NCBI RefSeq assembly: GCF_030028105.1
Contig: NC_092370.1
Location: 85,642,969-85,706,968, forward strand
DNA from: Mobula birostris
Lineage: Eukaryota
Direction: 5' to 3'
DNA length: 64,000 nt
Positions 3,860 through 44,264 of this stretch are shown here, in pieces (position 1 is the first letter of the stretch; each line of letters opens with the position of its first letter). Below the pieces are notes generated by a model. It did not search any database. It saw only the letters and a list, made by a program, of their open reading frames with translations, and was not told the origin of the DNA. Made by a program: the position numbers and the translations under genes.

Positions 3860-4185
3860 TGAGAGGCAAAGACAGGAGATAGGCAGTGTCTGTTTCCCAT
3901 TGTAAGGATCTCTAAAACCAAAGGGCATAGGTTTAATGTGAGAGGGGGGGGATCTGAGGGATAGGTTTTTCACACACAAAGGTATCTGGAATGAGCTGTC
4001 AGAGGAGGCATTGGAGGCAAGAACAACAAGAACATTTAAGAGGCATATGAACTGGTACTAAGATGAGCATAGAGAAATAGGGAATTAACGCAAGCAAGTG
4101 GGGTTCGTATAGAGTGGTATACTTGTCGGCATAGACATGGTGAAGCAAAGGTCCTCTTAGCATACTGTACAACCCTAGGATTCTA
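3860..4185 (+). mobile_element. Degraded CR1 3' fragment
   Basis: GGGCATAGGTTTAA..., TGGAATGAGCTG and CR1-like 3' UTR. Confidence 0.65.
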
Positions 4186-5609
4186 CAACAAAGTTGAAGC
4201 CTCTGGAGTACAGGAGGTAGTGACAGCATCAAGCAAAAGTAATGTGAGGGACCAGACAATAGCAATCATGGTAAATGGTTGATTTTCTGGTGTAGCCTGT
4301 TCCGCTACTTGCCTTTCTAAATTTATAATGAATGATTTGGAACACAAGATTTCCAAATGAAATATCACAATGGAGCATAAAACGCAAAGACACATGGAGC
4401 ATAAAACTTCACACAGAAAATTGTGAAATGATCTATTCCATTTTTACCTGGAAGATAAAGGGTTCAATTCTAAAAGCACTGCAAGAAATAAAACTTGGAC
4501 ACGTAGATGTATAAATCTTTTGAAGCCGTTAATACCTATTGAAAACTAAATTTAAAACAGCGCACATGAACTTGGACAGCATAAAAAGAAAAGAGCGCAA
4601 ATTAAGAGAGATCACATTGAACTGCTACATAACCTGGATCTGATTACTCCAAGTTCTGGTCACTGTGGTTGAGAAAGGACATGAATATTTTAGGGACAAC
4701 TCCGAAATTGGTTGGAGAAGCTAGAGCTGTTCTAATGAAATGAAGGTTGAGAGGCAATTTAATTTGAGACCTTCGAAGTCATAAGGGAACCAAAAGGTAA
4801 TAAAGGAAAATAGCTTTGAGTGGTCAAATCAATAGAAACAGGAAGGAAATTTAAAGCAATTGGCAAAAGAACTGGTGGCAACATGAGAGAAAGGCTTTGC
4901 CACAGAATAAAGTTATTCAATCTAGAACCCACTGCATGAAAAGCTGGTGGATACGTATTCAATTCTTTCAAGGGAAATTGTGTGATTTTTTAAAAAACAG
5001 CACAGTTTGGAAAAAGGGAACAGAGCTTGATGGACTTGGTGTCCTCTTTCCATGCTCCAGTTTTCTATGATATTATAACATTGATAAGATAATTCAGCAG
5101 AAACAGCATTGCCCATACTGTGGCAAGAACACCAAGTATACACCTTTAAGAAGAAAGTAAAACTTGATTGGCATAAGGGAAAACCAAAATGAAACATCCA
5201 GTGATAGAGGCAGCTGATAAGTGTGAACACAACAGTCAACATGCAAACAACCAAGAGACACAGTGTACCGAAACGGTGGATAGATGATCTCACATTTAGG
5301 AATGCAAACCCTTACAGATTTATTTTTAACACTAAGCTTCAGTGCTGCCTGAAGAGTTTGTATTAGACATAACAAACGTTTAGTATCGCAGGTACAACGC
5401 TATGCCTGTCAACACATCCGGCTCTCCAGATAATAAATTCCGACTTCAGCTTCCAAATTATATACGCAATCTTTCAGCTAGTTCATCGAATCGGGTGGTG
5501 GGGGGGGTCGGGGAAGAAGAAAGTGAATGTTGTGGGATGGGAACAAAGTGGAGTAAATCAGAATTGATTGGAGAGTATGCAGAGGCGGCTGAGGCAAGAA
5601 GTGTTGGAT

Positions 5610-8600
5610 GGAGAAGGGGCTGATGTCGGGAGTGGTGGGGAGAAGGGGCTGGGGATCGGAAGTGGTGGGGGGAAGGGGCTGGGGATCGGGAGTGGTGGGG
5701 GGAAGGGGCTGGGGGATCGGGAGTGGTGTGGTGGGGGAGAAGGGGCTGGGGATCGGGCGTGGTGGGGGAGAAGGGGCTGGGGATCGGGCGTGGTGGGGAG
5801 AAGGGGCTGGGGATCGGGAGTGGTGGGGGGAAGGGGCTGATGTCGGGAGTGGTGGGGAGAAGGGGCTGGGGATCGGGAGTGGTGGGGAGAAGGGGCTGGG
5901 GATCGGGAGTGGTGGGGGAGAAGGGGCTGGGATCGGGAGTGGTGGGGGAGAAGGGGCTGGAGATCGGGAGTGGTGGGGGAGAAGGGGCTGGGGATCGGGA
6001 GTGGTGGGGGAGAAGGGGCTGGGGATTGGGAGTGGTGGGGAGAAGGGGCTGGGGATCGGGAGTGGAGTGGTGGGGAGAAGGGGCTGGGGATCGGGAGTGG
6101 TGGGGAGAAGAGGCTGGGGATCGGGAGTGGTGGGGGGAAGGGGCTGGGGGATCGGGAGTGGTGTAGTGGGGGAGAAGGGGCTGGGGATCGGGAGTGGTGG
6201 GGGGAAGGTGCTGGGGATCGGGAGTGGTGGGGGAAGTGGATGGGGGATCGGGAGTGGTGGGGAGAAGGAGCTGGGGATCGGGAGTGGTGGGGGAGAAGGG
6301 GCTGGGGATCGGGAGTGGTGGGGAGAAGGAGCTGGGGATCGGGAGTGGTGGGGGAGAAGGGGCTGGGGATCGGGAGTGGTGGGGGAGAAGGGGCTGGGGA
6401 TCGGGAGTGGTGGGGAGAAGGGGCTGGGGATCGGGAGTGGTGGGGGGAAGGGGCTGGGGGATCGGGAGTGGTGTGGTGGGGGAGAAGGGGCTGGGGATCG
6501 GGAGTGGTGGGGGAAAGGTGCTGGGGATCGGGAGTGGTGGGGGAAGTGGATGGGGGATCAGGAGTGGTGCGGAGAAGGAGCTGGGGATCGGGAGTGGTGG
6601 GGGAGAAGGGGCTGGGGATCGGGAGTGGTGGGGAGAAGGAGCTGGGGATCGGGAGTGGTGGGGGAGAAGGGGCTGGGGATCGGGAGTGGTGGGGGAGAAG
6701 GGGCTGGGGATCGGGAGTGGTGGGGAGAAGGGGCTGGGGATCGGGAGTGGTGGGGGGAAGGGGCTGATGTCAGGAGTGGTGGGGGGAAGGGGCTGGGGAT
6801 CGGGAGTGGTGGGGAGAAGGGGCTGGGGATCGGGAGTGATGGGGAGAAGGGGCTGGGGATCGGGAGTGGTGGGGGGAAGGGGCTGGGGGATCGGGAGTGG
6901 TGGGGGGAAGGGGCTGGGGGATCGGGAGTGGTGGGGGAAGTGGCTGGGGGATCGGGAGTGGTGGGGAGAAGGGGCTGGGGATCGGGAGTGGTGGGGGGGA
7001 AGGTGCTGGGGATCGGGAGTGGTGGGGGAAGTGGATGGGGGATCGGAAGTGGTGGGGGAAGTGGATGGGGGATCGGGAGTGGTGGGGAGAAGGAGCTGGG
7101 GATCGGGAGTGGTGGGGGAGAAGGGGCTGGGGATCGGGAGTGGTGGGGAGAAGGAGCTGGGGATCGGGAGTGGTGGGGGAGAAGGGGCTGATGTCGGGAG
7201 TGGTGGGGGGAAGGGGCTGATGTCGGGAGTGGTGGGGGGAAGGGGCTGGGGATCGGGAGTGGTGGGGAGAAGGGGCTGGGGGATCGGCCGTGGTGGGGGG
7301 AAGGGGCTGGGGGATCGGGAGAGGTGGGGAGAAGGGGCTGGGGGATCGGGAGAGGTGGGGGGAAGGGGCTGGGGGATCGGGAGTGGTGGGGGGAAGGGGC
7401 TGGGGGATCGGGAGAGGTGGGGGGAAGGGGCTGGGGGATCGGGAGTGGTGGGGGGAAGGGGCTGATGTCGGGAGTGGTGGGGGGAAGGGGCTGGGGGATC
7501 GGGAGAGGTGGGGGAAGGGGCTGGGGATCGGGAGTGGTGGGGGAAGGGGCTGGGGATCGGGAGTGGTGGGGGGAAGGGGTTGGGGATCGGGAGTGGTGGG
7601 GGGAAGGGGCTGGGGGATCGGGAGTGGTGGGGGAAGGGGCTGGGGGATCGGGAGAGGTGGGGGGAAGGGGCTGGGGATCGGGAGTGGTGTGGTGGGGGAG
7701 AAGGGGCTGGGGATCGGGAGTGGTGGGGGAAAGGTGCTGGGGATCGGGAGTGGTGGGGGAAGTGGATGGGGGATCAGGAGTGGTGCGGAGAAGGAGCTGG
7801 GGATCGGGAGTGGTGGGGGAGAAGGGGCTGGGGATCGGGAGTGGTGGGGAGAAGGAGCTGGGGATCGGGAGTGGTGGGGGAGAAGGGGCTGGGGATCGGG
7901 AGTGGTGGGGGAGAAGGGGCTGGGGATCGGGAGTGGTGGGGAGAAGGGGCTGGGGATCGGGAGTGGTGGGGGGAAGGGGCTGATGTCAGGAGTGGTGGGG
8001 GGAAGGGGCTGGGGATCGGGAGTGGTGGGGAGAAGGGGCTGGGGATCGGGAGTGATGGGGAGAAGGGGCTGGGGATCGGGAGTGGTGGGGGGAAGGGGCT
8101 GGGGGATCGGGAGTGGTGGGGGGAAGGGGCTGGGGGATCGGGAGTGGTGGGGGAAGTGGCTGGGGGATCGGGAGTGGTGGGGAGAAGGGGCTGGGGATCG
8201 GGAGTGGTGGGGGGGAAGGTGCTGGGGATCGGAAGTGGTGGGGGAAGTGGATGGGGGATCGGGAGTGGTGGGGAGAAGGAGCTGGGGATCGGGAGTGGTG
8301 GGGGAGAAGGGGCTGGGGATCGGGAGTGGTGGGGAGAAGGAGCTGGGGATCGGGAGTGGTGGGGGAGAAGGGGCTGATGTCGGGAGTGGTGGGGGGAAGG
8401 GGCTGATGTCGGGAGTGGTGGGGGGAAGGGGCTGGGGATCGGGAGTGGTGGGGAGAAGGGGCTGGGGGATCGGCCGTGGTGGGGGGAAGGGGCTGGGGGA
8501 TCGGGAGAGGTGGGGGGAAGGGGCTGGGGGATCGGGAGTGGTGGGGGGAAGGGGCTGGGGGATCGGGAGAGGTGGGGGGAAGGGGCTGGGGGATCGGGAG

Positions 8601-11015
8601 AGGTGGGGGGAAGGGGCTGGGGGATCGGGAGTGGTGGGGGGAAGGGGCTGATGTCGGGAGTGGTGGGGGGAAGGGGCTAGGGGATCGGGAGAGGTAGGGA
8701 AGGGGCTGGGGATCGGGAGTGGTGGGGGGAAGGGGCTGGGGGATCGGGAGTGGTGGGGGAAGGGGCTGGGGATCGGGAGTGGTGGGGGGAAGGGGTTGGG
8801 GATCGGGAGTGGTGGGGGGAAGGGGCTGGGGAATCGGGAGTGGTGGGGGAAGGGGCTGGGGATCGGGAGTGGTGGGGGGAAGGGGTTGGGGATCGAGAGT
8901 GGTGGGGAGAAGGGGCTGGGGATCGGGAGTGGTGGGGGGAAGGGGCTGGGGGATCGGGAGAGGTGGGGGGAAGGGGCTGGGGGATCGGGAGTGGTGGGGA
9001 GAAGGGGCTGGGGGATCGGGAGAGGTGGGGGGAAGGGGCTGGGGGATCGGGAGTGGTGGGGGGAAGGGGCTGATGTCGGGAGTAGTGGGGGGAAGGGGCT
9101 GGGGGATCGGGAGTGGTGGGGAGAAGGAGCTGGGGATCGGGAGTGGTGGGGGAGAAGGGGCTGGGGATCGGGAGTGGTGGGGGAGAAGGGGCTGGGGATC
9201 GGGAGTGGTGGGGGAGAAGGGGCTGGGGATCGGGAGTGGTGGGGAGAAGGAGCTGGGGATCGGGAGTGGTGGGGGAGAAGGGGCTGGGGATCGGGAGTCG
9301 TGGGGGGAAGGGGCTGGGGATCGGGAGTGGTGGGGGGAAGGGGCTGGGGATCGGGAGTGGTGGGGGGGGCTGGGGATCGGGAGTGGTGGGGGGGGCTGGG
9401 GATCGGGAGTGGTGGGGAGAAGGAGCTGGGGATCGGGAGTGGTGGGGGAGAAGGGGCTGGGGATCGGGAGTGGTGGGGGAGAAGGGGCTGGGGATCGGGA
9501 GTGGTGGGGGAGAAGGGGCTGGGGATCGGGAGTGGTGGGGAGAAGGAGCTGGGGATCGGGAGTGGTGGGGGAGAAGGAGCTGGGGATCGGGAGTGGTGGG
9601 GGGAAGGGGCTGGGGATCGGGAGTGGTGGGGGGAAGGGGCTGGGGATCGGGAGTGGTGGGGGGAAGGGGCTGGGGATCGGGAGTGGTGGGGGGAAGGGGC
9701 TGGGGATCGGGAGTGGTGGGGGGAAGGGGCTGGGGGATCGGGAGTGGTGGGGGGAAGGGGCTGGGGATCGGGAGTGGTGGGGGGAAGGGGCTGGGGGATC
9801 GGGAGTGGTGGGGGGAAGGGGCTGGGGATCGGGAGTGGTGGGGGGAAGGGGCTGGGGGATCGGGAGTGGTGGGGGGAAGGGGCTGGGGATCGGGAGTGGT
9901 GGGGGGAAGGGGCTGGGGATCGGGAGTGGTGGGGGGAAGGGGCTGGGGGATCGGGAGTGGTGGGGGGGGCTGGGGATCGGGAGTGGTGGGGGGGGCTGGG
10001 GATCGGGAGTGGTGGGGGGAAGGGGCTGGGGATCGGGAGTGGTGGGGGGAAGGGGCTGGGGATCGGGAGTGGTGGGGGGGGCTGGGGATCGGGAGTGGTG
10101 GGGGGAAGGGGCTGGGGATCGGGAGTGGTGGGGGGAAGGGGCTGGGGAATCGGGAGTGGTGGGGGAAGGGGCTGGGGGATCGGGAGTGGTGGGGGGAAGG
10201 GGCTGGGGATCGGGAGTGGTGGGGAGAAGGAGCTGGGGATCGGGAGTGGTGGGGGGAAGGGGCTGGGGATCGGGAGTGGTGGGGGGGAAGGGGCTGGGGA
10301 TCGGGAGTGGTGGGGGGAAGGGGCTGGGGGATCGGGAGTGGTGGGGGGGGCTGGGGATCGGGAGTGGTGGGGGGAAGGGGCTGGGGATCGGGAGTGGTGG
10401 GGAGAAGGAGCTGGGGATCGGGAGTGGTGGGGGGAAGGGGCTGGGGATCGGGAGTGGTGGGGGGGAAGGGGCTGGGGATCGGGAGTGGTGGGGGGGGCTG
10501 GGGATCGGGAGTGGTGGGGGGAAGGGGCTGGGGATCGGGAGTGGTGGGGAGAAGGGGCTGGGGATCGGGAGTGGTGGGAGGAAGGGGCTGGGGATCGGGA
10601 GTGGTGGGGGGAAGGGGCTGGGGATCGGGAGTGGTGGGGGGAAGGGACTGGGGATCGGGAGTGGTGGGGGGGAAGGGGCTGGGGATCGGGAGTGGTGGGG
10701 GGAAGGGGCTGGGGGATCGGGAGTGGTGGGGGGGGCTGGGGATCGGGAGTGGTGGGGGGGGCTGGGGATCGGGAGTGGTGGGGGGGGCTGGGGATCGGGA
10801 GTGGTGGGGGGGCTGGGGATCGGGAGTGGTGGGGGGGAAGGGGCTGGGGATCGGGAGTGGTGGGGGGGAAGGGGCTGGGGATCGGGAGTGGTGGGGGGAA
10901 GGGGCTGGGGGATCGGGAGTGGTGGGGGGGGCTGGGGATCGGGAGTGGTGGGGGGGCTGGGGATCGGGAGTGGTGGGGGGAAGGGGCTGGGGATCGGGAG
11001 TGGTGGGGGGGGGGA
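5610..11015 (+). repeat. G-rich minisatellite, ~30 bp unit (GGGATCGGGAGTGGTGGGGGGAAGGGGCTG and variants), in the RNMT intron
   Basis: Directly visible tandem array of about 5.4 kb. The long Gly/Trp-rich ORFs in all three + frames are a by-product of the repeat. Confidence 0.98.
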
Positions 11016-23835: not shown

Positions 23836-24022
23836 GGATTACACTTCCTAGGTTGTTTCTTCATTTATCCCTTGCTGGTGCCATGTGCTCAGTATATCTG
23901 ATTTCCCACAGTGAGAGTTTATATACTGGAATATGAGATTGATACTTTTAATAGGCCACTTTTCTCTTGATTCTTTGTGTCTTCCCATATATTATGTCGC
24001 TACCAAGTAAAGAGAAAGGGAA

Positions 24023-24210
24023 GCAACACACGCAAAATGCGGGAAGAACTCAGCAGGCCAGGCAGCATCTGGGAAAAGCGTACAGTCGACATTTCAGGCC
24101 GAAACATTGACCGTACTCTTTTCTGAGATGCTGCCTGGCCCGCTGAGTTCCTCCAGCATCTTTTTGTGCGTTGCTTGGATTTCCAGCAACTGCAGATTTT
24201 CTCGTTTGTG
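24023..24210 (+). mobile_element. Short Penelope-derived inverted-repeat element with a 14-bp TSD
   Basis: Inverted arms GAACTCAGCAGGCCAGGCAGCATC / GATGCTGCCTGGCCCGCTGAGTTC; TSD AAAGAGAAAGGGAA at 24009-24022 and 24211-24224. Confidence 0.8.
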
Positions 24211-25184: not shown

Positions 25185-25345
25185 CACAAACAAGAGAAAA
25201 CCTGCAGATGCTGGAAGTCCAAGCAAAACACACACACAAAACGCTGGAGGAACTCAGTGTCTCAGCCCAAGATGTTGACTGTACTTTTTCCCATAGATGC
25301 TGCCTGGCCTGCCGAGTTCCTCCAGCATTTTGTGTGTGTTGCTAG
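25185..25345. mobile_element. Short Penelope-derived inverted-repeat element
   Basis: Same GCTGGAGGAACTC / GAGTTCCTCCAGC arms as the other copies. Confidence 0.7.
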
Positions 25346-25677
25346 AAGTACCCAGCTAGTCAGACTGCATCTGAGGAGAGATTTTTAAAAAAGAACATAG
25401 TTAATGTTACAGGGTGGTGATTTTTCAGAAGAACAAGTCAATTCTGACACAAGCTGAAAGGCTGGTTGCCTAAAACTGTTGAGCTCACAGCTGAGTTCCA
25501 AGGCCTGTAACATGCCTAGTCAAAAGGTGCCGCAATACTCCTCATATTTTCATAAAGCTTTGTGAGAACAGTATAACAGAGTAATGAAAAAACAGGGTGA
25601 TCAAAAAGCAGGCTGTCAGCCTATAAGCAGTTAAAGATTCAACAGAGATGACAAGGTAGATCCAAGTGTCTCAACCA

Positions 25678-31529: not shown

Positions 31530-31661
<132 letters not shown>

Positions 31662-32654
31662 CTATAGTGTGGGGTACTGGCTGACGAAACTGGGAGAGCA
31701 GTTTTGAGACACGTGCAACACATTGCTTTGAGAAAAAAAGAACTGTGACTGCAGTGGCTGCAGCATCTCATTATTTCCTTCCACTGTCTTGCAACTTGCT
31801 TCATTGTCTGCTTAGAAACTTTAGTTGTACCCCTAGAATGCATTAGATATGCACACCAACTGTTTTCATCATTGGTCCTAGAGCAGTTCTCATATTTTCT
31901 TATGACATAGAAGGCCTTCAGAGCAATCCCATCATCCTATTTCCCTACTTAATTCCAATAACCTATTCCCTCATGCATGCTTACCAGCTCTAGTAAGAAA
32001 CCATTCCACAAAAACTTCCCAAGGCTTGGACTGGTCACTGTTTTATTATTATCACATGTACAAACATACAGTGAAAAATTTATCTTGCATACCATTCATA
32101 CAGATCAGATCACTACACAGTACTTTGAAGTAGAACAAGGTAAAACAATAACAGGGTGCAGAATAAAATTAGCAGTTACAGAGAAAATGCAGTGCAGGTA
32201 GACAAACATGTAAAAGGTCAAAACAGGGTAAGTTGTGAAGCACTTGGTGTTGGGACAGCACAGGAAAGATTGTTGGCGCTTTAGGATAAATCAACACTGT
32301 GTTGGGGAGTTTAGAGGAGAGTACTGCATGATACTGAAGTGTTTGGGAGAGAGACCAGCATTTGGTATTGGGGTTGAACTTAGTGTGGGGACACAGACTA
32401 GCACTATACTGGCGTTGATTGAGGGAGAGGCTGGCACTTGGTATTGGAGGGCACAGGAAGGAACAAACTGGTGTTGGGAGTATAGGCAAGAAATTGGCAT
32501 GATATTGATGGGTTCAGCAAAGACCCTGACATGTGGAATTGATGTGGCTCAAGGGGTGGCATGATTTTAGTGGATACAAAGGTGGGTGACTTAGGATTCT
32601 TGGGACAGGTTACAGGAGATACTGGAAACTGGTGAAGGAAGCAGAGAAAGCATC

Positions 32655-33935
32655 ACAATATAAGACATTGAAGCAGAATTAGGCCATTCGGCCCATTGTG
32701 TCTGCTCTGCCATCTGATCCTGGCTGATCCATTTCTCTCTCAACCCCATTCTCCTGCCTTCTCCCCATAACCTTCTATGCCCTGACTTATCAAGAATCTA
32801 TCAACTTTTGCCTTAAATACACTTAATGACCTGGCCTCCACAGCTGTCTGTGGCAGTGAATTCCTCAGATTGACACTCTCTGGCTATAGAAATTGTTCCT
32901 CATCTTCGTTCTAAATGGACATCCCTCTTTACTGAGGTTGTAGCCTCTGGGTCCTAGACTCCCCCACTATTGGAAACATACTCTCCATATGTACCCTATC
33001 TAGACCTTTCATCAATCGAAAGGTTTCAATGAGATTCCCCCCACCACCAATCTTCTAAGTCCCAGCGACTACAGGCCCAGAGCCATCAAATGCTCCTCAT
33101 ATGATAAGCCTTTCAATCCCAGAATCATTTTTGTGAACCTCCTTGTAACCCTCTCCAATGTCAGCACATCCCTTCTTGGATAAGGGGCCAAATCTGCTCA
33201 CGATACTCCAAGTGAGGCCTCACCAGTGCCTTATAAAGCCTCAGCATTACATCCTTGTTTTTATATTCTTGTCCTCTCAAAATGAATGCCAACACTACAT
33301 TTGCCTTCCTCACCACCGACTCAACCTGCAAGTTAACTTTTAGGGAATCCTGCACGAAGACTCCCAAGACCCTTTGCACCTCGGATTTTTTTAAATTTTT
33401 GGCTTGTTTATAAGATATTCTACCGATTTATTTTTTCTACCAAAGTTCATGACCATATACTTCCTGACACTGTATTTCATCTGCTACTTCTTTGCCCGTT
33501 CTCCTAATCTGTCTAAGTGCTTCTACAGCCTCCCTGCTTCCTCTACTTTATCTGCCCCTGCACCTATCTTTGTATCGTCCGCAAACCTGGCCATTAAATC
33601 ATTGACATAAAAGAATCGGTCCCACCACTAACCCCTGCAGAACACCACTAATCACCAGAAGCCAATCAGAAGAGGCACCCTTTATTCTCACACTTTGCAT
33701 CCTGTCAGTCAGCCAATCTTCTATCTATGCTAGCATCTTTACTGTAATACCATGACTCTTACCTTGCTAAGCAGCCTCAGGTGTGGCACCTTGTCAAAGG
33801 GCTTCTGAAAATCCAAGTACACACAGCATCCACCATTTCTGCTTTGTCTATCCTGCTTGTTATTTCCTCAAAGAATTCCAACAGATTTGTCAGACGAGAT
33901 TTTCCCTTAAGAAAACCATGCTGACTTTGGCCCAT
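32655..33935 (-). mobile_element. CR1 3' fragment
   Basis: RT C-terminal remnants (LYKALVRPHLEY) and a 3' tail. Confidence 0.88.
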
Positions 33936-34088
33936 TGTGTTGGTTGTTCTAGGCAGGACCAGGTCTTGGGCTTGGTCTTGGTCTTGTAATCAGTCAGTGA
34001 GAATAAGCTCCTGGTGCTGGGGGCAATGAGGATCCAGATCATTACCACTAATTTACTCCGGCAGAGACCCGGGTTTAATCCCAGCCTC

Positions 34089-34412
34089 TCACACAAAATG
34101 CTGGTGAACACAGCAGACCTGGCAGCATCTATTGGAAGAGGTACAATCGACGGTTCAGGCCAAGACCCTTCGTCAGGACTAACTGAAAGAACTACTTGTG
34201 CTACCACTTGTGCTGGCAGCTCATTCGACACCCTCACCACCTTCTGACCTTCACCTTCACTCTCTTCTTTCAGTTAGTCCTGACGAAGGGTCTTGGCCCG
34301 AAACGTCGACTGTACCTCTTCCTAGAGATGCTGCTTGGCCTGCTGCATTCACCAGCATTTTGTGTGTGTTGCTTACATTTCCAGCATCTGCAGATTTCCT
34401 CGTGTTTGCGTT
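34089..34412 (+). mobile_element. Penelope-derived element with two inverted hammerhead-bearing arms and a 15-bp TSD
   Basis: Arms 34089-34188 and 34268-34370 are reverse complements; TSD TTTAATCCCAGCCTC at 34074-34088 and 34413-34427. Confidence 0.85.
34275..34312 (+). ncRNA. Minimal type I hammerhead ribozyme motif (Penelope type)
   Basis: TAGTC-CTGACGA-A-GGGTCTTGGCCC-GAAA-CGTC-GACTG: CUGANGA and GAAA cores, stem II, palindromic ACGT in place of stem III, GUC cleavage triplet, and stem I TAGTC/GACTG. Confidence 0.75.
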
Positions 34413-34769
34413 TTTAATCCCAGCCTCCTGTGCTGTCTGTGTAGAGTTTGCATATTCTCCCAGGGACAGCAAGGCTTTCTTCCAGGTGCTCTGTTTTTCT
34501 CCCACATTCCATGATGTGCAGCTTGGTAGGTTAACCGGCCATCACAACTTGCCACTCGTGTCAGTGAGTGGTAGGATCTGAGGAGTTGATGAGAGTGTGG
34601 GGAGTAGAAAAAAATGGATCAGTGGTTGATGGATAGACAGAGGGCTTGTTTCATTTTTATTACTCCCTATCACTTGAAAATAACTGCATTGTGCAATGGA
34701 ATTTCAAGGTTTTTTTTCTAATTTGTTTTCCTTCATGTCTCTATTTCATAACCCTTTACTTACCAAGTA

Positions 34770-35565
34770 ATGGGTTAAGGATGAAATGTGAAATGTATAA
34801 AGGGAACATGAGGGGGATCTTCTTCACTCAGAAGGTGGTGAGAGTGTGGAATGAGCTGCCAGCACAAGTAGTGGATACAGGTTCGATTTCAACACTTAAG
34901 AGAAATTTGTTTAAGTACATGGATGGGAGGGGTATGGAGGGCTATGGTCCGGGGTGCAGGTTGATTGGAGCAACACTTTCAGTACACTGGATGAACTCAG
35001 CAGGTCGGGCAGCATCAGTTAGAAACGATGAGTTGACATTTCGGGCCGGAACCCTTCGTTAGGACTGAAGAATGAAAGATGGGGAAAGATTTGAAGGATG
35101 CTTGTAGCTTCAGTTGAAAGACCAGTAATTTGAAAGACAAAGGGATGGGGAAGGGGAAGCATTGACGTCATAGCCCTGAAAACAATGGGTAGTAGAAGAA
35201 GGAGGTGGAACCATGAGGGAGCTGGGGGAGGGGTTAGAGTGAAATAGGGTTAGAGGAAGGGAGGGGGAGGGAATTACCGGAAGTTGGAGAATTCTATGTT
35301 CATACCAAGGGGTTGGAGACTACCTAGACGATATATGAGCTGTTGCTCCTCCAACCTGAGTTTAGCCTCATCATGGCAGTAGAGAAGGCCATGTGTGGAC
35401 ATATCTGAATGGGAATGGGAAGCAGAGTTGAAGTGGGTGGCTACCGGGAGATCCTGTCTGTTGTGGCGGACGGAGTGGAGGTTGATTGGACTAGGCAGAT
35501 AGTTAGTTTGGCACAGACTAGATGCGCCAAAGAGTCTAGTTCTATGCTTTAGTGTTCTATGACTC
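34770..35565 (+). mobile_element. CR1 3' fragment interrupted by a Penelope insertion
   Basis: FFTQKVVRVWNELP; the 3' UTR resumes at 35479 and ends in a GTTCTATG tail. Confidence 0.8.
34970..35478 (-). mobile_element. Penelope-like element 3' end (GIY-YIG endonuclease C-terminus and pseudo-LTR) with a 12-bp TSD
   Basis: LPVATHFNSASHSHSDM..LEEQQLIYRLGSLQPLGMNIEF*; TSD AGGTTGATTGGA at 34958-34969 and 35479-35490. Confidence 0.88.
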
Positions 35566-35704
35566 GAAGTCTTCTGTTCCTCCATCAATCCAACAGAAAT
35601 GTTAGCATCATCAAATTGCAATTTCTTGATTCAACTTGTTTGCTATCAAAGTCTTTTCAACCTTGGCCCATATGCAGTTTGCCCAATCAAAAATGACAGA
35701 TGTA

Positions 35705-36565
35705 CAGTGGCGTGCAAAAGTTTGGGCACCGGGTCAAAATTTCTGTTACTGTGAATAGCTAAGCGAGTAAAAGATGACCTGATTTCCAAAAGGCATAAAG
35801 TTAAAGATGACAAATTTCTTTAATGTTTTAAGCAAGATTATTTTTTAATTTCCATCTTTTACAGTTTCAAAATAACAAAAAAGGAAAAGGGCCCAAAGTA
35901 AAAGTTTGGGCACCCTGCACGGTCAGTACTTAGTAACACCCCCCTTGGCAAGTATCACAGCTTGTAAACGCTTTCTGTAGCCAGCTAAGAGTCTTTCAAC
36001 TCTTATTTGGGGGACTTTCACCCATTCTTCCTTGCAAAAGGCTTCTAGTTCTGTGAGATTCTTGGGCCGTCTTGCATGCACTGCTCTTTTGAGGTCTATC
36101 CACAGATTTTCGATGATGTTTAGGTCAGGGGACTGTGAGCGCCATGGCAAAACCTTCAGCTTGCACCTCTTGAGGTAGCCCATTGTGGATTTTGAGGTGT
36201 GTTTAGGATCATTATCCTGTTGTAGAAGCCATCCTCTTTTCATCTTCAGCTTTTTTACAGACGGTATGATGCTTGCTTCCAGAATTTGCTGGTATTTAAT
36301 TGAATTCATTCTTCCCTCTACCAGTGAAATGTCCCCCGTGCCACTGGCTGCAACACAAGCCCAAAGCATGATCGATCCACCCCTGTGCTTAACAGTTGGA
36401 GAGGGGTTCTTTTCATGAAATTCTTCACCCTTTTTTCTCCAACATACCTTTGCTCATTGCGGCCAAAATTCAGCTTCAGAAGTTTGCAAAGGAACATCTA
36501 AACAAGCCTGATGCATTTCGGAAAAAAGTCCTATGGACTGATGAAGTTAAAATAGAACTTTTTGT
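35705..36565 (-). mobile_element. Tc1-type (IR/DR) DNA transposon remnant: one TIR and the catalytic part of the transposase
   Basis: TA|CAGTGG terminus at 35703-35710; direct repeat AAAAGTTTGGGCACC at ~35716 and 35900; QQDNDPKHTS and SPDLNIIENLW motifs; the WTDE segment at 36470-36563 is inverted. Confidence 0.92.
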
Positions 36566-39500
36566 GAAAGAAATCAAGGCAGTAATCCATTCTCTATCTA
36601 TGGATAACTATGCTTACTCTACGTAACCTTTGTAGTTTGCAAATCCTTTTAAAGTTCTTGATTGGATTACTACCTGTACTTATAAATGTTAAGCATATCC
36701 TTTAAACATCATACCGGTCATCATGGCAGTAAGAGGGCAAAAGTGTCGTAGACACTATATGAGATCAGCACAATTTATTGCCATTGACTGAGACAGTTTG
36801 CATGATCTCATTGGAACATCACTCAAAGTTAACACTGTAAAATAACCTTAAATCCTGAATAATGTTACAATCCTACTTCTTTTGTAAGCCTCATTCACAA
36901 ATCCTGCTGAGAGGGTTGAACAGGAAGCTCAGGCAACGTCGGACTGGCACCATTTCTAAACCTGACTGTCAATTTCACCATGTCCTAACAAACTCGTCAG
37001 ATAATATGACCTGTGTCAACAATGAACCAGATCTCAACGGGTGCAATAAATGTCAACATTTACTTATTACTTTCAACGGTGAATGAAACAAACATGAGCA
37101 CGACTTCAAGAGGGAAAAAGCAAAACCAATACTTCAAAACATAGAATGTTTACATACCATCATTCATTTATTCAGAAGAACCACATTAGCAAATACTAAA
37201 ACATAAGGTACTATTGTCTAGCAGTAAAAATAATAGATAACAGACATGAATGAAAACAATCTATTTCTCTGTTTAAATACAAGCTCTACAAAGTATTAAG
37301 TTTTGATGGAATGTATTTGAAATTTAAGAGCAGGAATGCCAACTCTAGTTGCATGTATTCCAAGAAATTACAACTGCACTGCTTAGTCAAGCAGCCTTAG
37401 CACTTTAAGTTTAATCAATAAGAACAGTTAAACAAATTGAAATCAATTTATTAAATTTAATGTGTCTATGATTTTTCTCCTGGGTTGTCTGTGACCAGAT
37501 CAATCTCAATTCCTGATGTCTTCAGTACAGCCCAGGGACATCAGCACCACAACTCATGAGAAGGTTGAAAACTATTCATTCAGTCCTTCCTATCTCATTC
37601 TATGCTGCTGTGACAACAGAGGCACAGTGATTAACTCCACTGGCTGTACAGTTACTTTTTGAATAAATAATTTTAAAAATGGTAATGTAAATCCCATTTG
37701 GCAATGAAAACGTGTTCTAGTTCAGTTACAATTCTTCAGTAAGAGGAAGAGTCCTTGTCTCAAGCAGAGAATATCTGATTGTGCAAACCATGGTCATTTA
37801 GACCTAAAGATTGCATTACAAAGGTTACCCATGAGGGAAAGAATATGACCTTTTCAGCTTATCCTGTCTATCCTTTGTCCTACAGAAAGTGTTGATTTGT
37901 GCCTCCATTTCCCTACAAATGGAACTATCAAGTAGGACAAGACCATAAAGAGCCAAAAAGAAAACCATTTAAGAGACACAAATGCTGGGTTTGCTGGCTT
38001 GGGCCACACTTTCACCACTGTTAATGACTGCTCACTCAGTATTTACTTTGAACCACTTACTGTCCATGAACTTCCACCGAATCTACATCTCATCTCATCA
38101 CAAATACTTTCTGTGCCTTTCTCCCTTCTGCATACATCTAATTTCCCTGTAATGTTTTGTTAAATAACACATTATATTAATAAGATTTAGTAAGCAGGTT
38201 CCATTACAGCCCATGATGTCAGTTAGTTACAAACAGATTGCTGTAATTTGGTGAGATGGCTTTAAAGTATCAAGGGTCCACATTTCTAGTAAGTGAAGAA
38301 TTTTATCTTTTGAAGTTTTCTGTTATATTTTGACACATTTTTTTAAACCCAGTAAGTGGTTTAAAAATCGTTTACATCTAGTCATGTATTGCACTCTATC
38401 AAAAAGTCACTGTTTATAAGGGCTGTTTAAAATTTTCTCCTTTTTTGATACTTGATAAATTTCCTTCTATTATTGATTTAAAATTTTTACAAAAACACCA
38501 TTAGAGTCAACATGTAATCAACAGAGCTTAGATGTCAGGAAGCATGTATAAAAGGCAGCTGATCACGAGCTATGCCTGGCCTTAATGACAAATGTGAAGA
38601 TTTACCCCAGGGAAGCTGTAACAAATTAGAAATTCTTTGTCATACATCCTATTAATGCAGAAATCAGAAACCCAACTGAAAACAATAATTGCTGCATGAT
38701 GATACATTGCTGCTCCAAGGTCTGGCTCCTTTAAAATTAAGTCACCTTAAAAATTTCATTCCTTAAACGGTGTATTTTCCCAAGGGATTAAGCAAATGTT
38801 TTTGAAAGCCAAAAGCAAGAAGAAACACAAGATAGAAACAAAACAGCCAGAGAAACATTTGGCAAGCCTTTCATGTAAGTCATCAAAATTCTATTTGGAA
38901 AAGCACAAGCTAATATTTTAAATGGTCACATTCCTGCAGAGAAGTCTTTCTATAAAGGTTATCACTCCATCCACTTAAGCAATGTTTAATTTTCTTTGTG
39001 CCCCAGCCACGTTTCTGACTAAGACTGGTAGACTGTATTTGTTTTACTTTGCAAATGAAGTCACATCCATTTTAAAATTAGGCTGAGAGTCTCACACTAA
39101 ATTTAAGAAGTCACATTCAAATAAAGCAGTAACTCTGAGATTTTATGGGTCAGCCGCCAGTTTCCTACTGTAATTCCAATGAAAGGCTGGCATAAACATG
39201 AGAAGGGTAATGTAAACAGGTGATGAGACTGGTTAATGATGCGGGGAGGGGAGATGGAAGACTGAACAAAGAGAGAGCGATCATAAGCGTAACACCTGAC
39301 TCCATCTGTCCAGCATCCAGATACCTATCAACCTGGGTTCTTTCCCCTTGGATCACTATTCCTATCTTCTCCCCTCCATCATGGTTTCATCTGCTCATCT
39401 TTCCTCTCTTATCTGCTTCCACCTATTACCTTCCAACTTCTGTCTCTTCCCTCCCCCCATTTGCCTATTTGTCCCTTCTTATCTGTTTCTACCTATCACC

Positions 39501-39734
39501 CATCAGCCTTTGTCTCTACACTCTTCCTTCATTCTACCCCATCTGCCCATCATCTCCACGTTATATGGTTCTATCTATCACTACTAGTTTCTGCCAAACC
39601 CCTCTACCATCTGCTCATCATCCCCTCATCTGGTTCCACCCATCACCTACCAGCCTCTGGCTCACCACCTGCCCCTCACCCCCACAGTTATAAATACAGC
39701 TCTCTACCCCTCACATTTTTAGTCCGGTTATAGT

Positions 39735-42700
39735 CAGAGAAAACTGAAGCACAGAAGCAGTCCCCTTGGCCCATCTGGTCTGTCTCGAACCATTTAAACT
39801 GCCTAGTCTCATTGACCATCACCCAGATCATACCCCTCCAAACACTTCCCTCCATGTACCTAACCAAACTTCTCTTAAATGTTGAATAGAAATTGCATTC
39901 ACCACTTGTGCTGGCAACTCATTCTACACTCTCACCACCCTCTGAATAACGACGTTCCCCTCACGTTTCCCTTAAACATTTCACCTTTCACCTTTAACCC
40001 ATGACTTCTAGTTGTAGTCTCATCCAACCTCAGTGCAAAAAGCCTGCATGTACCCCATCTATACCCTCCATAATCTTGTACAGTATCAAATCACCCCTCT
40101 ATCATCTATGTTCTAATGAAGTTTTAACCTATTCAATCTTTCCTTAAAGTCCCAGCAGGTCCTCAAGTCCCGGCAACACCCTTGGAAGTTTTCTCTGTAC
40201 TCTTTTAATCTTATTTACATCTTTCCTGCAGGAAGGTGGCCAAAACTGCACACAAACTGCCTCACCACTGTCTTATACAATTTCAACATACATCCCAACT
40301 CCTGTACTCAATACCTTGATCTATGAAGGCCAATGTGCCAAAAGCTTTCTTTATTTTCATATTTATCTGTGACACCACTTGCAATGAACATGACCTGTAT
40401 TCTCAGATCCTTTTGTTCTACCACACTCCTCAGTGCCCTACCACTCACTGTGTAAGACCTTCCCTGGATAGTCATCCCAAAATGCAACACCTCACACTTG
40501 ACTGCATTAAATTCCATCTGCATTTTTCAGCCCATTTTTCCAGCTGGTCCAGATCCCACTGCAAGCTTTGATAGTCTTCCACAAGGACCCAGCACTGATC
40601 CCTGCGGGGCTCCACTAGTCACGGGCCTCCAGTCAAAGAGACAACCATTTACTCCCACTCTCTGTCTTCTCCCGCAAAGCCAATGTCTAATCCAATTTAC
40701 CCCTCATCTTGAATTTCAGATGACTGAAACTTCTTCACCAACCTCCCATGCAGGACCTTGTCAAAGGCCTTGGTAAGGTCCATGTAGACACCATCCACTG
40801 GCTTCATCAACTTTCCTGGTAACTTCCTAGAAAAACTCTGTGAATTGGTTAGACATGACTTAACACACACAAAGCCATGTTGACTATTGCTAATTAGTCC
40901 CTGTCTATTCAAATACTTATATATCCAGTGCCGTAGAACATCTTCCACTAACTTTCCCACTACTGATGACAGGCTCACCTGTCTAAAATTTTCTGGCTTT
41001 TTCTTAGAGACTTTGTTAAACAGTGCAATAACATTAGATATAATCCAGTTCTCCGGCACCTCACCTGTGGCTAAGGATGTTTTAAATATCTCTGCTGGGG
41101 CTCCTGCAATTTCTACATTAGCCTCCCACAGGGTCTGAGGGAACACCTTGTCAGGCTCTGGAGATTTATCCACCCAAATTTGCCTGAAGACTGCAAACAG
41201 CTCCTTCTCTGTAATCTGTACAGGGTCCATGACCTCTCTGCTGCTTTGCCTCACTTCCATAGACTCTGTGTCCATCTCCCAATTAAATACAGATGCAAAA
41301 AAAAATCATTTTGAGATCTCCCCCATCTCTTTTGGCTCCATGCATAGATTACCAATCGGATCTTCCGGAGGACCAATTTTGTCCTTTGCAATCCTTCTGC
41401 TCTTAACATTTCTGTAGAAGCCCTTAGGGTTCTCCTTCACCTTGTCTGCTAGAGCAGCCTCATGCCTTCTTTTAACCCTCCTGATATCCTTAAGTGTTCT
41501 CTTGCATTTCTTATACTCCTCAAGTACCTCATTTATTCCTACCTGCCTGTAGCTGCTATGCACCTCCTTTTTCTTAACCAGGGCCTCAATATTTACCGAA
41601 CACCAAGAGATATCTAAACCTGTTATCTTTACCTTTTACTCTGACAGGCACATACAGGCTTTGTACTCTCGAAATTTCACTTTTGAAGGCCTTCCACTTA
41701 CCAAGTACTCCTTTGCCACCTTTGCCAGAAAACAACCTGTCCCAATCCACAGCTGCCATATCTTTTCTGATACCATCAAAATTTCAACCTGAGGACCAGA
41801 CCTATCCTTTTCCATAATTACCTTCAAGCTAATGGCATTATGATCACAAAATGGAAAATGTACCCCTACTCAAAACTTCTGTCATCTGCCCAGCCTCATT
41901 TCCTAATAGCAGATCAAGTACCACACAATCTCTCATTGGGACTCTTGCGTACTGATTACGGAATCTTTCCCGAATGCGTTTGACAAATTCTATCCCATCT
42001 AGTCCTTTTACACCATGGGAGTCCCAGTCGATATGTGGAAAGTTAAAATCACCTACTATAACAACCTTATGTTTCTTGCAACAGTCTGAGATCTCTCTAC
42101 AAATTTCTTCCTCTAAATCCCACGGACCATTAGATGGTCTGTAACATAATCCCATTAACATGGCCATACCTTTTCTTAATTCTCAGTTCCACCCATAAAA
42201 CCTCACTAGATGAGTTCTCCGGTATGTCCTGACTGAGCACTGCCATCATATTTTCCCTGACTAGTAACACCACTCCTCCTACTCTATCACATCTATTGAG
42301 CGGCCAGTGCTGCCTCTCCCGCAACCAAGTCACATTAATGGCTATAAAATTATAATGCCATGTGTTGATCCAAGCCCTGAGCTCATCTGCCTTTCCTATA
42401 ATACTTCTTTCATTGAAGTATACACAACTCAGAACTTTAGTCCCACCGTGCTCAATCTTTTGATTCTTGACCTTGTCTGAGGTCTTAACAACATCTGTCT
42501 CCACAACCACCCACTATCTGTTCTGGCACTCTGGTTCCCATCCCCATATAGATCTAGTTTAACACCATCTCCCCACCTCCCCCCCCCCACCCCCATGCAG
42601 TACTAGCAAACATTCCTGCTAGTACCCCTCCAGTTTAAGTGCAAACCATCATCCATACAGGTTGCACCTTCCCTGGAAGAAAGCCCAATGATCCAAAATT

Positions 42701-43200
42701 CTAAAACCCTCCCTTGGAGATCAACTCCTTAGCCATGTATTAAACTGTATGATCTTCCTATCTCTGGCCTCACTAGCCTGCGGCCTGCGAACACAACCCT
42801 GGACATTCTGTCCTTTAACTTAGCACCTAACTCCCTGAACTCACTTTGCAGAATCTTGTCCCTCTTCCTACCTAAGCACAAACAAGAGAAAATCTGCAGA
42901 TGCTGAAAATCCAGTCTGGTCTGGTCCTGCTGAAGGGTCTCGGCCCGAAATGTCAACTGCACTCTTTTCCGTAGATGCTGCCTGGCCTGCTGAGTTCTTC
43001 TAGCATTTTCTGTGTGTTGCCTCTTCCTACCTACTTCCAAGAATGAATCATAAAAACTATCAGAACCCTGAAGCCCCCTCCCCCAATGAAGGAAACAGTA
43101 AATAAACTGAAAAAAAATCTACCTAATGCTTTTTGCCTTCTCTCACTCAAACTTCTCCTCGCTGAAGCCTCGAAGATCTAAAGCCTCAAAAACACCACTC
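39735..43200 (-). mobile_element. Long degraded CR1 LINE (ORF1 remnant, APE, RT, 3' tail)
   Basis: GDFNFPHIDW, DKSPEPD, YMDLTKAFDKV and QMEFNAVKCEVLHFG motifs, with many frameshifts. Confidence 0.88.
42875..43019 (+). mobile_element. Short Penelope-derived element with a 14-bp TSD, inside CR1
   Basis: TSD CCTCTTCCTACCTA at 42861-42874 and 43020-43033; degenerate hammerhead CTGCTGAAGGGTCTCGGCCCGAAATGTC. Confidence 0.8.
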
Positions 43201-43339
43201 TAGCACTGTTGCAGGTATCAGCCCAAAATGTCAACCATCCCTTTGCTTCCACAGATACTGTTGAACCATTGACTTGTTCCAGGAATTTTTCTTTTGCTCC
43301 AGTCCCTTGTATCTCCATTCATGTGAATGTGACTTGAAT

Positions 43340-43740
43340 TGTAGTGTATGAGCTGTAAAGAGCACTTGGACAAACTTAGATTGTTTTCTCTGGAGCTTTG
43401 GAGACAAAGAAGCCCAAAATTATGAAAACCATAAATAGGGTAGGCAGTTTCACTTTTCCTCTAGAGGACACAGGTTTAATGTGAGAGGGGGAGGTTTAAA
43501 GGAGATATATGAGGCCAGTATTTTTTAAACACAGAGGGTAGCAGGTGCTGGGACATCTTGCCAGGAAGTGGCAGAAGCAGATACACCAGCAACATTTAAG
43601 AGACATTTTGACCAATACAGCTGGAGATGAAGGGATATAGACCGTGTAGAGGAAGATGGGACTAATTTGGATTGGCATCATGGTTGGCACTGACATTGTG
43701 GGCCAAGGGGCCTATTCATGTACTGTACTGTTCTATGTTC
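43340..43740 (+). mobile_element. CR1 3' fragment
   Basis: Typical 3' end TGTACTGTACTGTTCTATGTTC. Confidence 0.75.
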
Positions 43741-44264
43741 ACTGTCAAATTGTGTACGACTGCAAGCTAACAGAAGTTTCAGAGAAAATGATATCTTTCA
43801 CCCACGATGTCATCTCACCACATGTTCCACTGATCTGACCACAGAGAAAATTCCAGATGAACAGCTTTAATAATCAACAGATGAACTTAAAAGGAACAAC
43901 AAACTTGAACTTGGAACTTGAGCTCAGAGTGGGGTGAAGCGGAATGAAGCATGAACAGTGGAATTGATTATTTTAACCAAATGGACCATCTTGATGCTAT
44001 TTGTGTTTTTATTTCTAAATACATTTAGATAGCATGTAACATGATAATGGGTTACAGTATTTCTATTTTGTACTTTGCCTGTATCACAGCAATAAACCAA
44101 CTATTGAAAGAGATGTGGAAATAATACATTGATTTCACTCTAACTGAACAGCACATTATTTCCAGCTATTACTACACAAGGATTATTTCACTGTCTCAAA
44201 CATTTATAATAATGGCACAAAACATAATGCAAAGATTGTACTGAATGAGAAGAGATATACTTAC

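What the first reader, a model, noticed from the sequence alone, without database searches (positions are those of the whole stretch)
34275..34312. Intact minimal hammerhead ribozyme in LGI intron 4 (antisense strand)
Seen: stem I TAGTC (34275-34279) pairs with GACTG (34308-34312); core CTGACGA (34280-34286); stem II GGGT..GCCC; GAAA (34300-34303); then CGTC, predicting cleavage after C34307. Stem III is reduced to the palindrome ACGT. Established: Penelope-like elements carry minimal type I hammerheads thought to cleave as dimers. Inference: a potentially active self-cleaving RNA spread through this genome by the short elements above.
Basis: partly seen in the sequence, partly recalled or inferred. 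Interest (0 to 1): 0.7.

Follow-up and report, generated by a model that had tools for sequence, protein, structure and literature searches.

The report
Penelope retroelement stub with minimal hammerhead
This is a real but ordinary leftover: the cut-short end of a Penelope-type jumping gene in a ray genome, carrying a known tiny ribozyme-shaped motif that occurs intact over 37,000 times, and this copy likely does not cut because it is predicted to be locked inside a long hairpin.

Summary
The motif is exactly where described, antisense in intron 4 of an LGI1-like gene. It also has the extra A before stem II that is typical of Penelope-like element (PLE) hammerheads. It is not chance: 37,301 exact intact matches genome-wide, control 0. 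It is the 3' pseudo-LTR of a 5'-truncated PLE (RT plus GIY-YIG, probably Neptune clade), not a separate short element. This kind of motif was described in 2014, and this scan noted it before on other shark/ray DNA. Evidence is against this copy being active. An inverted sister copy sequesters it in a 109-bp hairpin (predicted stem probability 0.0), and no intact same-strand partner lies within 35 kb. Intact copies are not purged from intron sense strands (6 sense, 5 antisense). Copy 5' ends do not pile up at the cut site, and stems show no covariation. A small sample showed fewer core mutations than expected; genome-wide counts showed only a weak deficit. Side finding: an older subfamily amplified with a non-canonical CUGCUGA (A6C) core. 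No cleavage was tested.

The parts
34275..34312 (+). Minimal type I hammerhead motif: stem I, CUGACGA, extra A, stem II, GAAA, palindromic ACGU, predicted cut after C34307
34261..34410 (+). 5'-truncated PLE copy (subfamily A): pLTR with hammerhead and 103-nt tail to the shared 3' end
34090..34191 (-). Inverted partial copy, 92/102 identical, sense to LGI1-like pre-mRNA; core broken (GAAC for GAAA)
34192..34260 (.). Spacer between the arms, containing a 45-nt piece of another dispersed repeat
34074..34088 (+). Left copy of a 15-nt direct repeat flanking the composite insertion (likely target-site duplication)
34413..34427 (+). Right copy of the 15-nt direct repeat; downstream flank matches another dispersed repeat that the insertion appears to split
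31603..44264 (-). Intron 4 of the LGI1-like host gene (coding exons 49563 to 27070)
34963..35480 (-). Second PLE copy (subfamily B): GIY-YIG C-terminus, 3' UTR and hammerhead with G5A core change
42922..43021 (+). Older PLE copy with CUGCUGA (A6C) core and broken palindrome

Best explanation
The motif is the minimal hammerhead in the 3' pseudo-LTR of a 5'-truncated Penelope-like retroelement copy, inserted with an inverted sister copy into intron 4 of an LGI1-like gene, and it is likely an inert passenger here. Shown: sequence, family, upstream RT/GIY-YIG ORF in sister copies, copy number and flanking duplication. Inferred: the element's RT copied an RNA that had not been cut at this hammerhead (or had been religated), starting about 103 nt downstream of the cut site and stopping early. 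Inferred from literature: any cleavage role belongs to source elements, where tandem pLTRs about 3.5 kb apart or the element's protein could supply the partner or chaperone. This copy is intact mainly because it is young (2 differences in 92 compared columns from the subfamily majority).
For: Family. Abundance: 37,301 intact; at least 75,688 subfamily A tails. Folding: stem I and II probability 0.0 in context; monomer favours an inactive rod (-12.9 vs -8.9 kcal/mol); active dimer -16.7 vs best dimer -35.9. Intronic orientation in LDL-receptor-family genes: 6 sense and 5 antisense intact; core intact in 9 of 14 sense and 7 of 13 antisense A/B copies. Across the cut site 93.5% of copies continue, against 92.1% across the preceding 4 nt. 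Core U4 transversions 110 vs loop U 141 (p=0.058). Covariation reached by 51 of 500 shuffles. PMC4209133: monomers inactive, dimers weak. PMC11167929: PLE hammerhead needs protein and is not needed for insertion in vitro.
Against: In 40 unbiased subfamily A copies, non-CpG core sites were mutated less than downstream sites (3/356 vs 47/1745, p=0.035; 3 vs 10.2 expected after base adjustment, P about 0.009). The genome-wide U4 count is also slightly low. Both sense-strand young copies in this intron have broken cores (n=2). The strand test is small (11 motifs) and excludes only strong purging. Folding energies are predictions; a transcript starting in the spacer could form the stems (0.42-0.51).
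Confidence: 0.85

Rival explanations
1. Dispersed intact copies, this one included, cleave host or antisense transcripts at a low rate by dimerising in trans or with PLE protein help.
For: All core positions and the ACGU palindrome are intact; 37,301 potential partners; mild core-mutation deficit; protein-assisted cleavage in PMC11167929.
Against: Hairpin sequestration and unfavourable dimer energy; no sense-strand purge; no cut-site 5' pile-up; antisense transcription at this site not shown.
Confidence: 0.1
2. In this lineage the motif is kept as a protein-binding or folding signal, or as overlapping pLTR/ORF sequence, and catalysis is dispensable even for source elements.
For: An older subfamily amplified with CUGCUGA, a change that greatly slows Mg2+ cleavage in PMC7151607. 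Copies derive from uncut RNA. Core mutants still insert in vitro (PMC11167929). This rival concerns source elements and is compatible with the best explanation.
Against: The other subfamily majorities keep the canonical core and palindrome although these contain hypermutable CpGs. A6C is a natural, weakly active variant (PMC3088659).
Confidence: 0.3
3. The motif has been co-opted to regulate the LGI1-like gene, like the conserved RECK and C10orf118 intronic hammerheads.
For: Intronic position only.
Against: Wrong strand for the pre-mRNA; the sense-strand arm is broken; young insertion; intact motifs occur about once per 110 kb, so one in a gene region is unremarkable.
Confidence: 0.02

Closest known systems
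Minimal hammerheads (min-HHR) in pLTRs of metazoan PLEs (Cervera and De la Pena 2014, PMC4209133)
   Same: Type I topology, 5-bp stem I, unpaired base between 9 and 10.1, G10.1-C11.1, palindromic 15.2-16.2, no stem III loop, mostly single dispersed copies, some opposite-strand pairs within 100-700 bp.
   Different: Stem II is 4 bp (7-8 in Schistosoma). Count is at least 37,301 against about 4,000-9,000 reported for coelacanth and Xenopus. No shark or skate name was found in the searchable supplement (file 1 not searchable).
EN+ PLEs of the Neptune/Nematis type (Craig et al. 2021, PMC8557442)
   Same: RT with KPADKG and YIDD, C-terminal GIY-YIG with CCHH-type cysteines, CX3CX2C linker, heavy 5' truncation, adjacent inverted copy, tandem pLTRs.
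   Different: Clade not fixed by phylogeny here; this locus has no ORF left.
PAc Poseidon element of Anolis (Frangieh et al. 2024, PMC11167929)
   Same: Hammerhead in the pLTR next to the ORF start; copies end about 100 nt downstream; AT-rich target; uncut RNA is the template.
   Different: Different clade (the ray element has the linker Zn finger); nothing tested biochemically here.
Non-LTR retrozymes (bioRxiv 10.64898/2026.07.22.740005)
   Same: PLE pLTR-derived sequence with a type I hammerhead.
   Different: Retrozymes are head-to-tail tandem arrays; this is a solo copy with an inverted partner.

Membership tests
PLE minimal hammerhead | CUGANGA, GAAA and UH core in order | tested here: met
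PLE minimal hammerhead | Stems I and II, G10.1-C11.1, extra base after A9 | tested here: met
PLE minimal hammerhead | Palindromic stem III remnant | tested here: met
   ACGT at 34303-34306
PLE minimal hammerhead | Located in a PLE pLTR | tested here: met
   18 of 29 nearest copies have the ORF end upstream; tandem pLTRs in L251
PLE minimal hammerhead | Compensatory stem changes among copies | tested here: inconclusive
   57 copies, 87.6% cells paired, covariation not above shuffles (51/500); copies are closely related and decaying
PLE minimal hammerhead | Self-cleavage as a dimer or with protein | not testable with these tools
   no assay possible; folding predictions are unfavourable
EN+ PLE, Neptune/Nematis type | RT followed by C-terminal GIY-YIG | tested here: met
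   RVT_1 E=1.6e-7 over cut-off; GIY-YIG E=2.9e-4, 21.5 bits, just under the 22.6 cut-off (subfamily B ORFs); subfamily A ORFs mostly 70-80% identical
EN+ PLE, Neptune/Nematis type | CX2-5CxxC linker before the endonuclease | tested here: met
   CKRKCYTC in L251; criterion from PMC8557442
EN+ PLE, Neptune/Nematis type | RT phylogeny within Neptune | not tested
   no reference sequences held; Neptune over Nematis rests on recall of host range
Non-LTR retrozyme | At least two consecutive tandem units with complete hammerheads | tested here: not met
   no tandem array at the locus; partner is inverted and broken
Canonical or domesticated intronic hammerhead | Sense orientation, Rfam match, loop-loop contacts | tested here: not met
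   antisense; no Rfam hammerhead hit

The most novel reading that the evidence does not exclude
A whole autonomous PLE subfamily in this ray multiplied to an estimated 50,000 copies with an A6C hammerhead core, while templates in the younger subfamily were copied uncut. That is a natural experiment showing either that PLE hammerhead catalysis is dispensable for retrotransposition in vivo, or that a Mn2+-preferring variant known from a phage served a vertebrate retroelement.
Probability: 0.35. Interest if true: 0.45.

Novelty: new member of a known kind. Interest (0 to 1): 0.17.

Why it matters
The single copy matters little. The family offers a large natural data set on an open question: what PLE hammerheads do. 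Genomic counts here suggest templates are copied uncut, intact copies are tolerated on intron sense strands, and one subfamily spread with an A6C core. All three point away from routine cleavage and can be tested with a short in vitro panel.

Tried and rejected
Rfam scan: no hammerhead family hit. Loose pattern counting in the window: not discriminating. RNA data: no holder listed is on record as RNA; laying four contig sets mapped almost only multi-copy repeat pieces, none spanning the locus, so nothing on expression or cleavage. 360 of the 1,200 kb fetched for the strand test was a 33-bp satellite and contributed almost no copies. Duplicate origin of the C21 intronic copies: rejected, flanks differ. 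ADAR scar in the hairpin arms (lead e1-9141068): not seen; the 10 differences are mixed, mostly C-to-T. Non-autonomous SINE or retrozyme origin: rejected. 5' ends at the cut site: rejected. 5' ends just upstream of the motif (lead e1-9579745): some of 30 copies without shared upstream look so, not quantified. Lunse et al. 2016/2017 could not be read.

Full report
Observation. The host gene is an LGI1-like gene whose closest database proteins are stingray proteins at 99% identity. It has eight exons on the minus strand, and intron 4 spans 44264-31603, so the motif is antisense in intron 4. Rfam did not detect it. A loose pattern gave 13 matches against 6.3 expected. A structural descriptor gave 7 hits in 464 kb around the window and 0 in 40 of 40 shuffles. 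An exact 34-nt pattern matches 37,301 times in the 4.0-Gb genome, with 0 for the reversed control.

What carries it. The 30 best genomic matches share a 3' end about 103 nt past the predicted cut and extend upstream to variable lengths. In 18 of the 29 other than this one, a GIY-YIG C-terminus ends 187-334 nt upstream on the same strand; these are the best of 1,285 candidates, not a random sample. Longer relatives match Pfam RVT_1 over its cut-off and GIY-YIG just under it. One of six long copies fetched (L251) has pLTRs at both ends with hammerhead motifs 3.5 kb apart and a frameshifted ORF carrying KPADKG, YIDD, a CX3CX2C linker and the CxxC...YIG motif. By the criterion in PMC8557442 (passages read) that linker marks Neptune or Nematis, not Penelope/Poseidon. 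Neptune is my recalled guess for a vertebrate; no phylogeny was built. A profile found 105 pLTR-tail pieces in 464 kb, which extrapolates to roughly 0.9 million genome-wide.

The locus. The copy (34261-34410) is preceded by a short spacer and an inverted 102-nt copy (34090-34191, 92/102 identical). A 15-nt direct repeat flanks the whole (34074-88, 34413-27), and the right flank matches another dispersed repeat. An adjacent inverted truncated copy is a standard PLE insertion form. The inverted arm, which is sense to the pre-mRNA, has GAAC for GAAA. A second sense copy at 34963-35480 has G5A.

Is this copy active? Predicted folding says no. With the inverted arm present, stems I and II have probability 0.0; without it, 0.42-0.51. 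The monomer prefers a rod in which the core pairs with CGUCG (-12.9 vs -8.9 kcal/mol), and the active dimer scores -16.7 against -35.9 for the best dimer. The nearest intact same-strand motif is 35 kb away.

Do dispersed copies behave as active ribozymes? I took 1.2 Mb from within four LDL-receptor-family gene spans, oriented only by their LDLa exon strands; 0.36 Mb proved to be satellite. Intact motifs were 6 sense and 5 antisense. Among subfamily A and B copies the core was intact in 9 of 14 sense and 7 of 13 antisense; all motif-spanning copies split 41 to 42. This excludes only strong purging. Genome-wide nested patterns gave 75,688, 69,675 and 65,113 matches, so 93.5% of copies continue across the cut site against 92.1% across the preceding four bases. 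There is no pile-up of 5' ends at the cut. Covariation in 57 distinct copies (56 filtered for score and an ungapped match, plus this one) was not above shuffles.

Results against my reading. In 40 subfamily A copies (one low-scoring row dropped), non-CpG core sites carried 3 changes in 356 against 47 in 1,745 downstream (p=0.035; P about 0.009 after base adjustment). Some downstream changes recur in several copies and may be inherited from source elements, which would mean selection on the core in sources rather than in copies. Genome-wide, core U4 transversions number 110 against 141 for a loop U (p=0.058). A6 changes are about 1.5% (457 G/T plus an estimated 98 C on a subfamily A background), against 12/675 downstream in pattern-intact copies. 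A weak deficit cannot be excluded.

Mechanism. Shown: identity, family, anatomy and counts. Inferred: target-primed reverse transcription of an uncut or religated RNA, early termination, inverted second piece, then near-neutral decay led by CpG loss. From papers: single minimal hammerheads did not cleave and dimers cleaved weakly (PMC4209133, parts 1-2 of 4 read). The Anolis PLE hammerhead cleaved only with the element's protein, and core mutants still inserted (PMC11167929, parts 1-2 of 4 read). Dimer cleavage is also summarised in PMC6765202 (passages). Tandem retrozymes, including in a chondrichthyan, are in bioRxiv 10.64898/2026.07.22.740005 (parts 1-2 of 5 read).

Side finding. 420 exact matches carry CUGCUGA or CUGCNGA. 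Of the first 30 inspected, 23 have a flanking background unlike subfamily A. In the unbiased sample 17 of 146 motif-spanning copies were flagged as C6-type. In a tree of 42 copies built from flanks without the motif, 8 of 9 C6 copies form one all-C6 group (support 87/88, not starred). Many have the PLE ORF upstream. Sixteen copies in about 1.3 Mb extrapolate to about 50,000. A6C is a natural phage variant, slow in Mg2+ and favoured by Mn2+ (PMC7151607 and PMC3088659, passages). Two searches listed no PLE A6C family, but Lunse et al. was not held and supplement file 1 of PMC4209133 could not be searched; either may contain it.

Verdict. A real motif and a new member of a known kind, likely inert at this site. 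The scan's notes list 76 similar findings in at least 22 genomes (unchecked, not used as support); a sequence look-up returned nothing. Interest 0.17.

Noticed in passing
window 42922-43021; L101-L130; flank and intron samples: Older PLE subfamily with a CUGCUGA (A6C) hammerhead core and upstream ORF, estimated 50,000 copies.
   Followed up: partly
window 34090-34191 vs 34265-34366: The two arms are identical over the inner 34 nt but differ at 10 of the outer 68; the left arm has a variant seen in other copies, so two templates or later conversion are possible.
   Followed up: partly
window 24021-24209 and 25186-25356: Other head-to-head pLTR tail pairs truncated inside stem II; the first gives the spurious Rfam hairpin hits.
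   Followed up: no
window 5610-11010: G-rich 30/31-bp minisatellite, about 179 copies.
   Followed up: no
L214-L250 (G000 C6, about 118.0-118.36 Mb): About 360 kb of a 33-bp satellite lying between same-strand LDLa exons of a very large gene.
   Followed up: no
window 35923-36453: DDE_3 transposase remnant in the same intron (E=1.1e-10).
   Followed up: no
L251:953-1400 (minus strand, oriented coordinates): An open frame runs through the 5' pLTR hammerhead and tail into the element's N-terminal coding region; the frame through the motif differs by 2 nt between subfamilies A and B, so the start codon is unresolved.
   Followed up: partly
G000 C38:20408886-20485468 (listing): Eight PLE endonuclease matches at regular spacing of about 10.9 kb, suggesting a tandem segmental array.
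   Followed up: no
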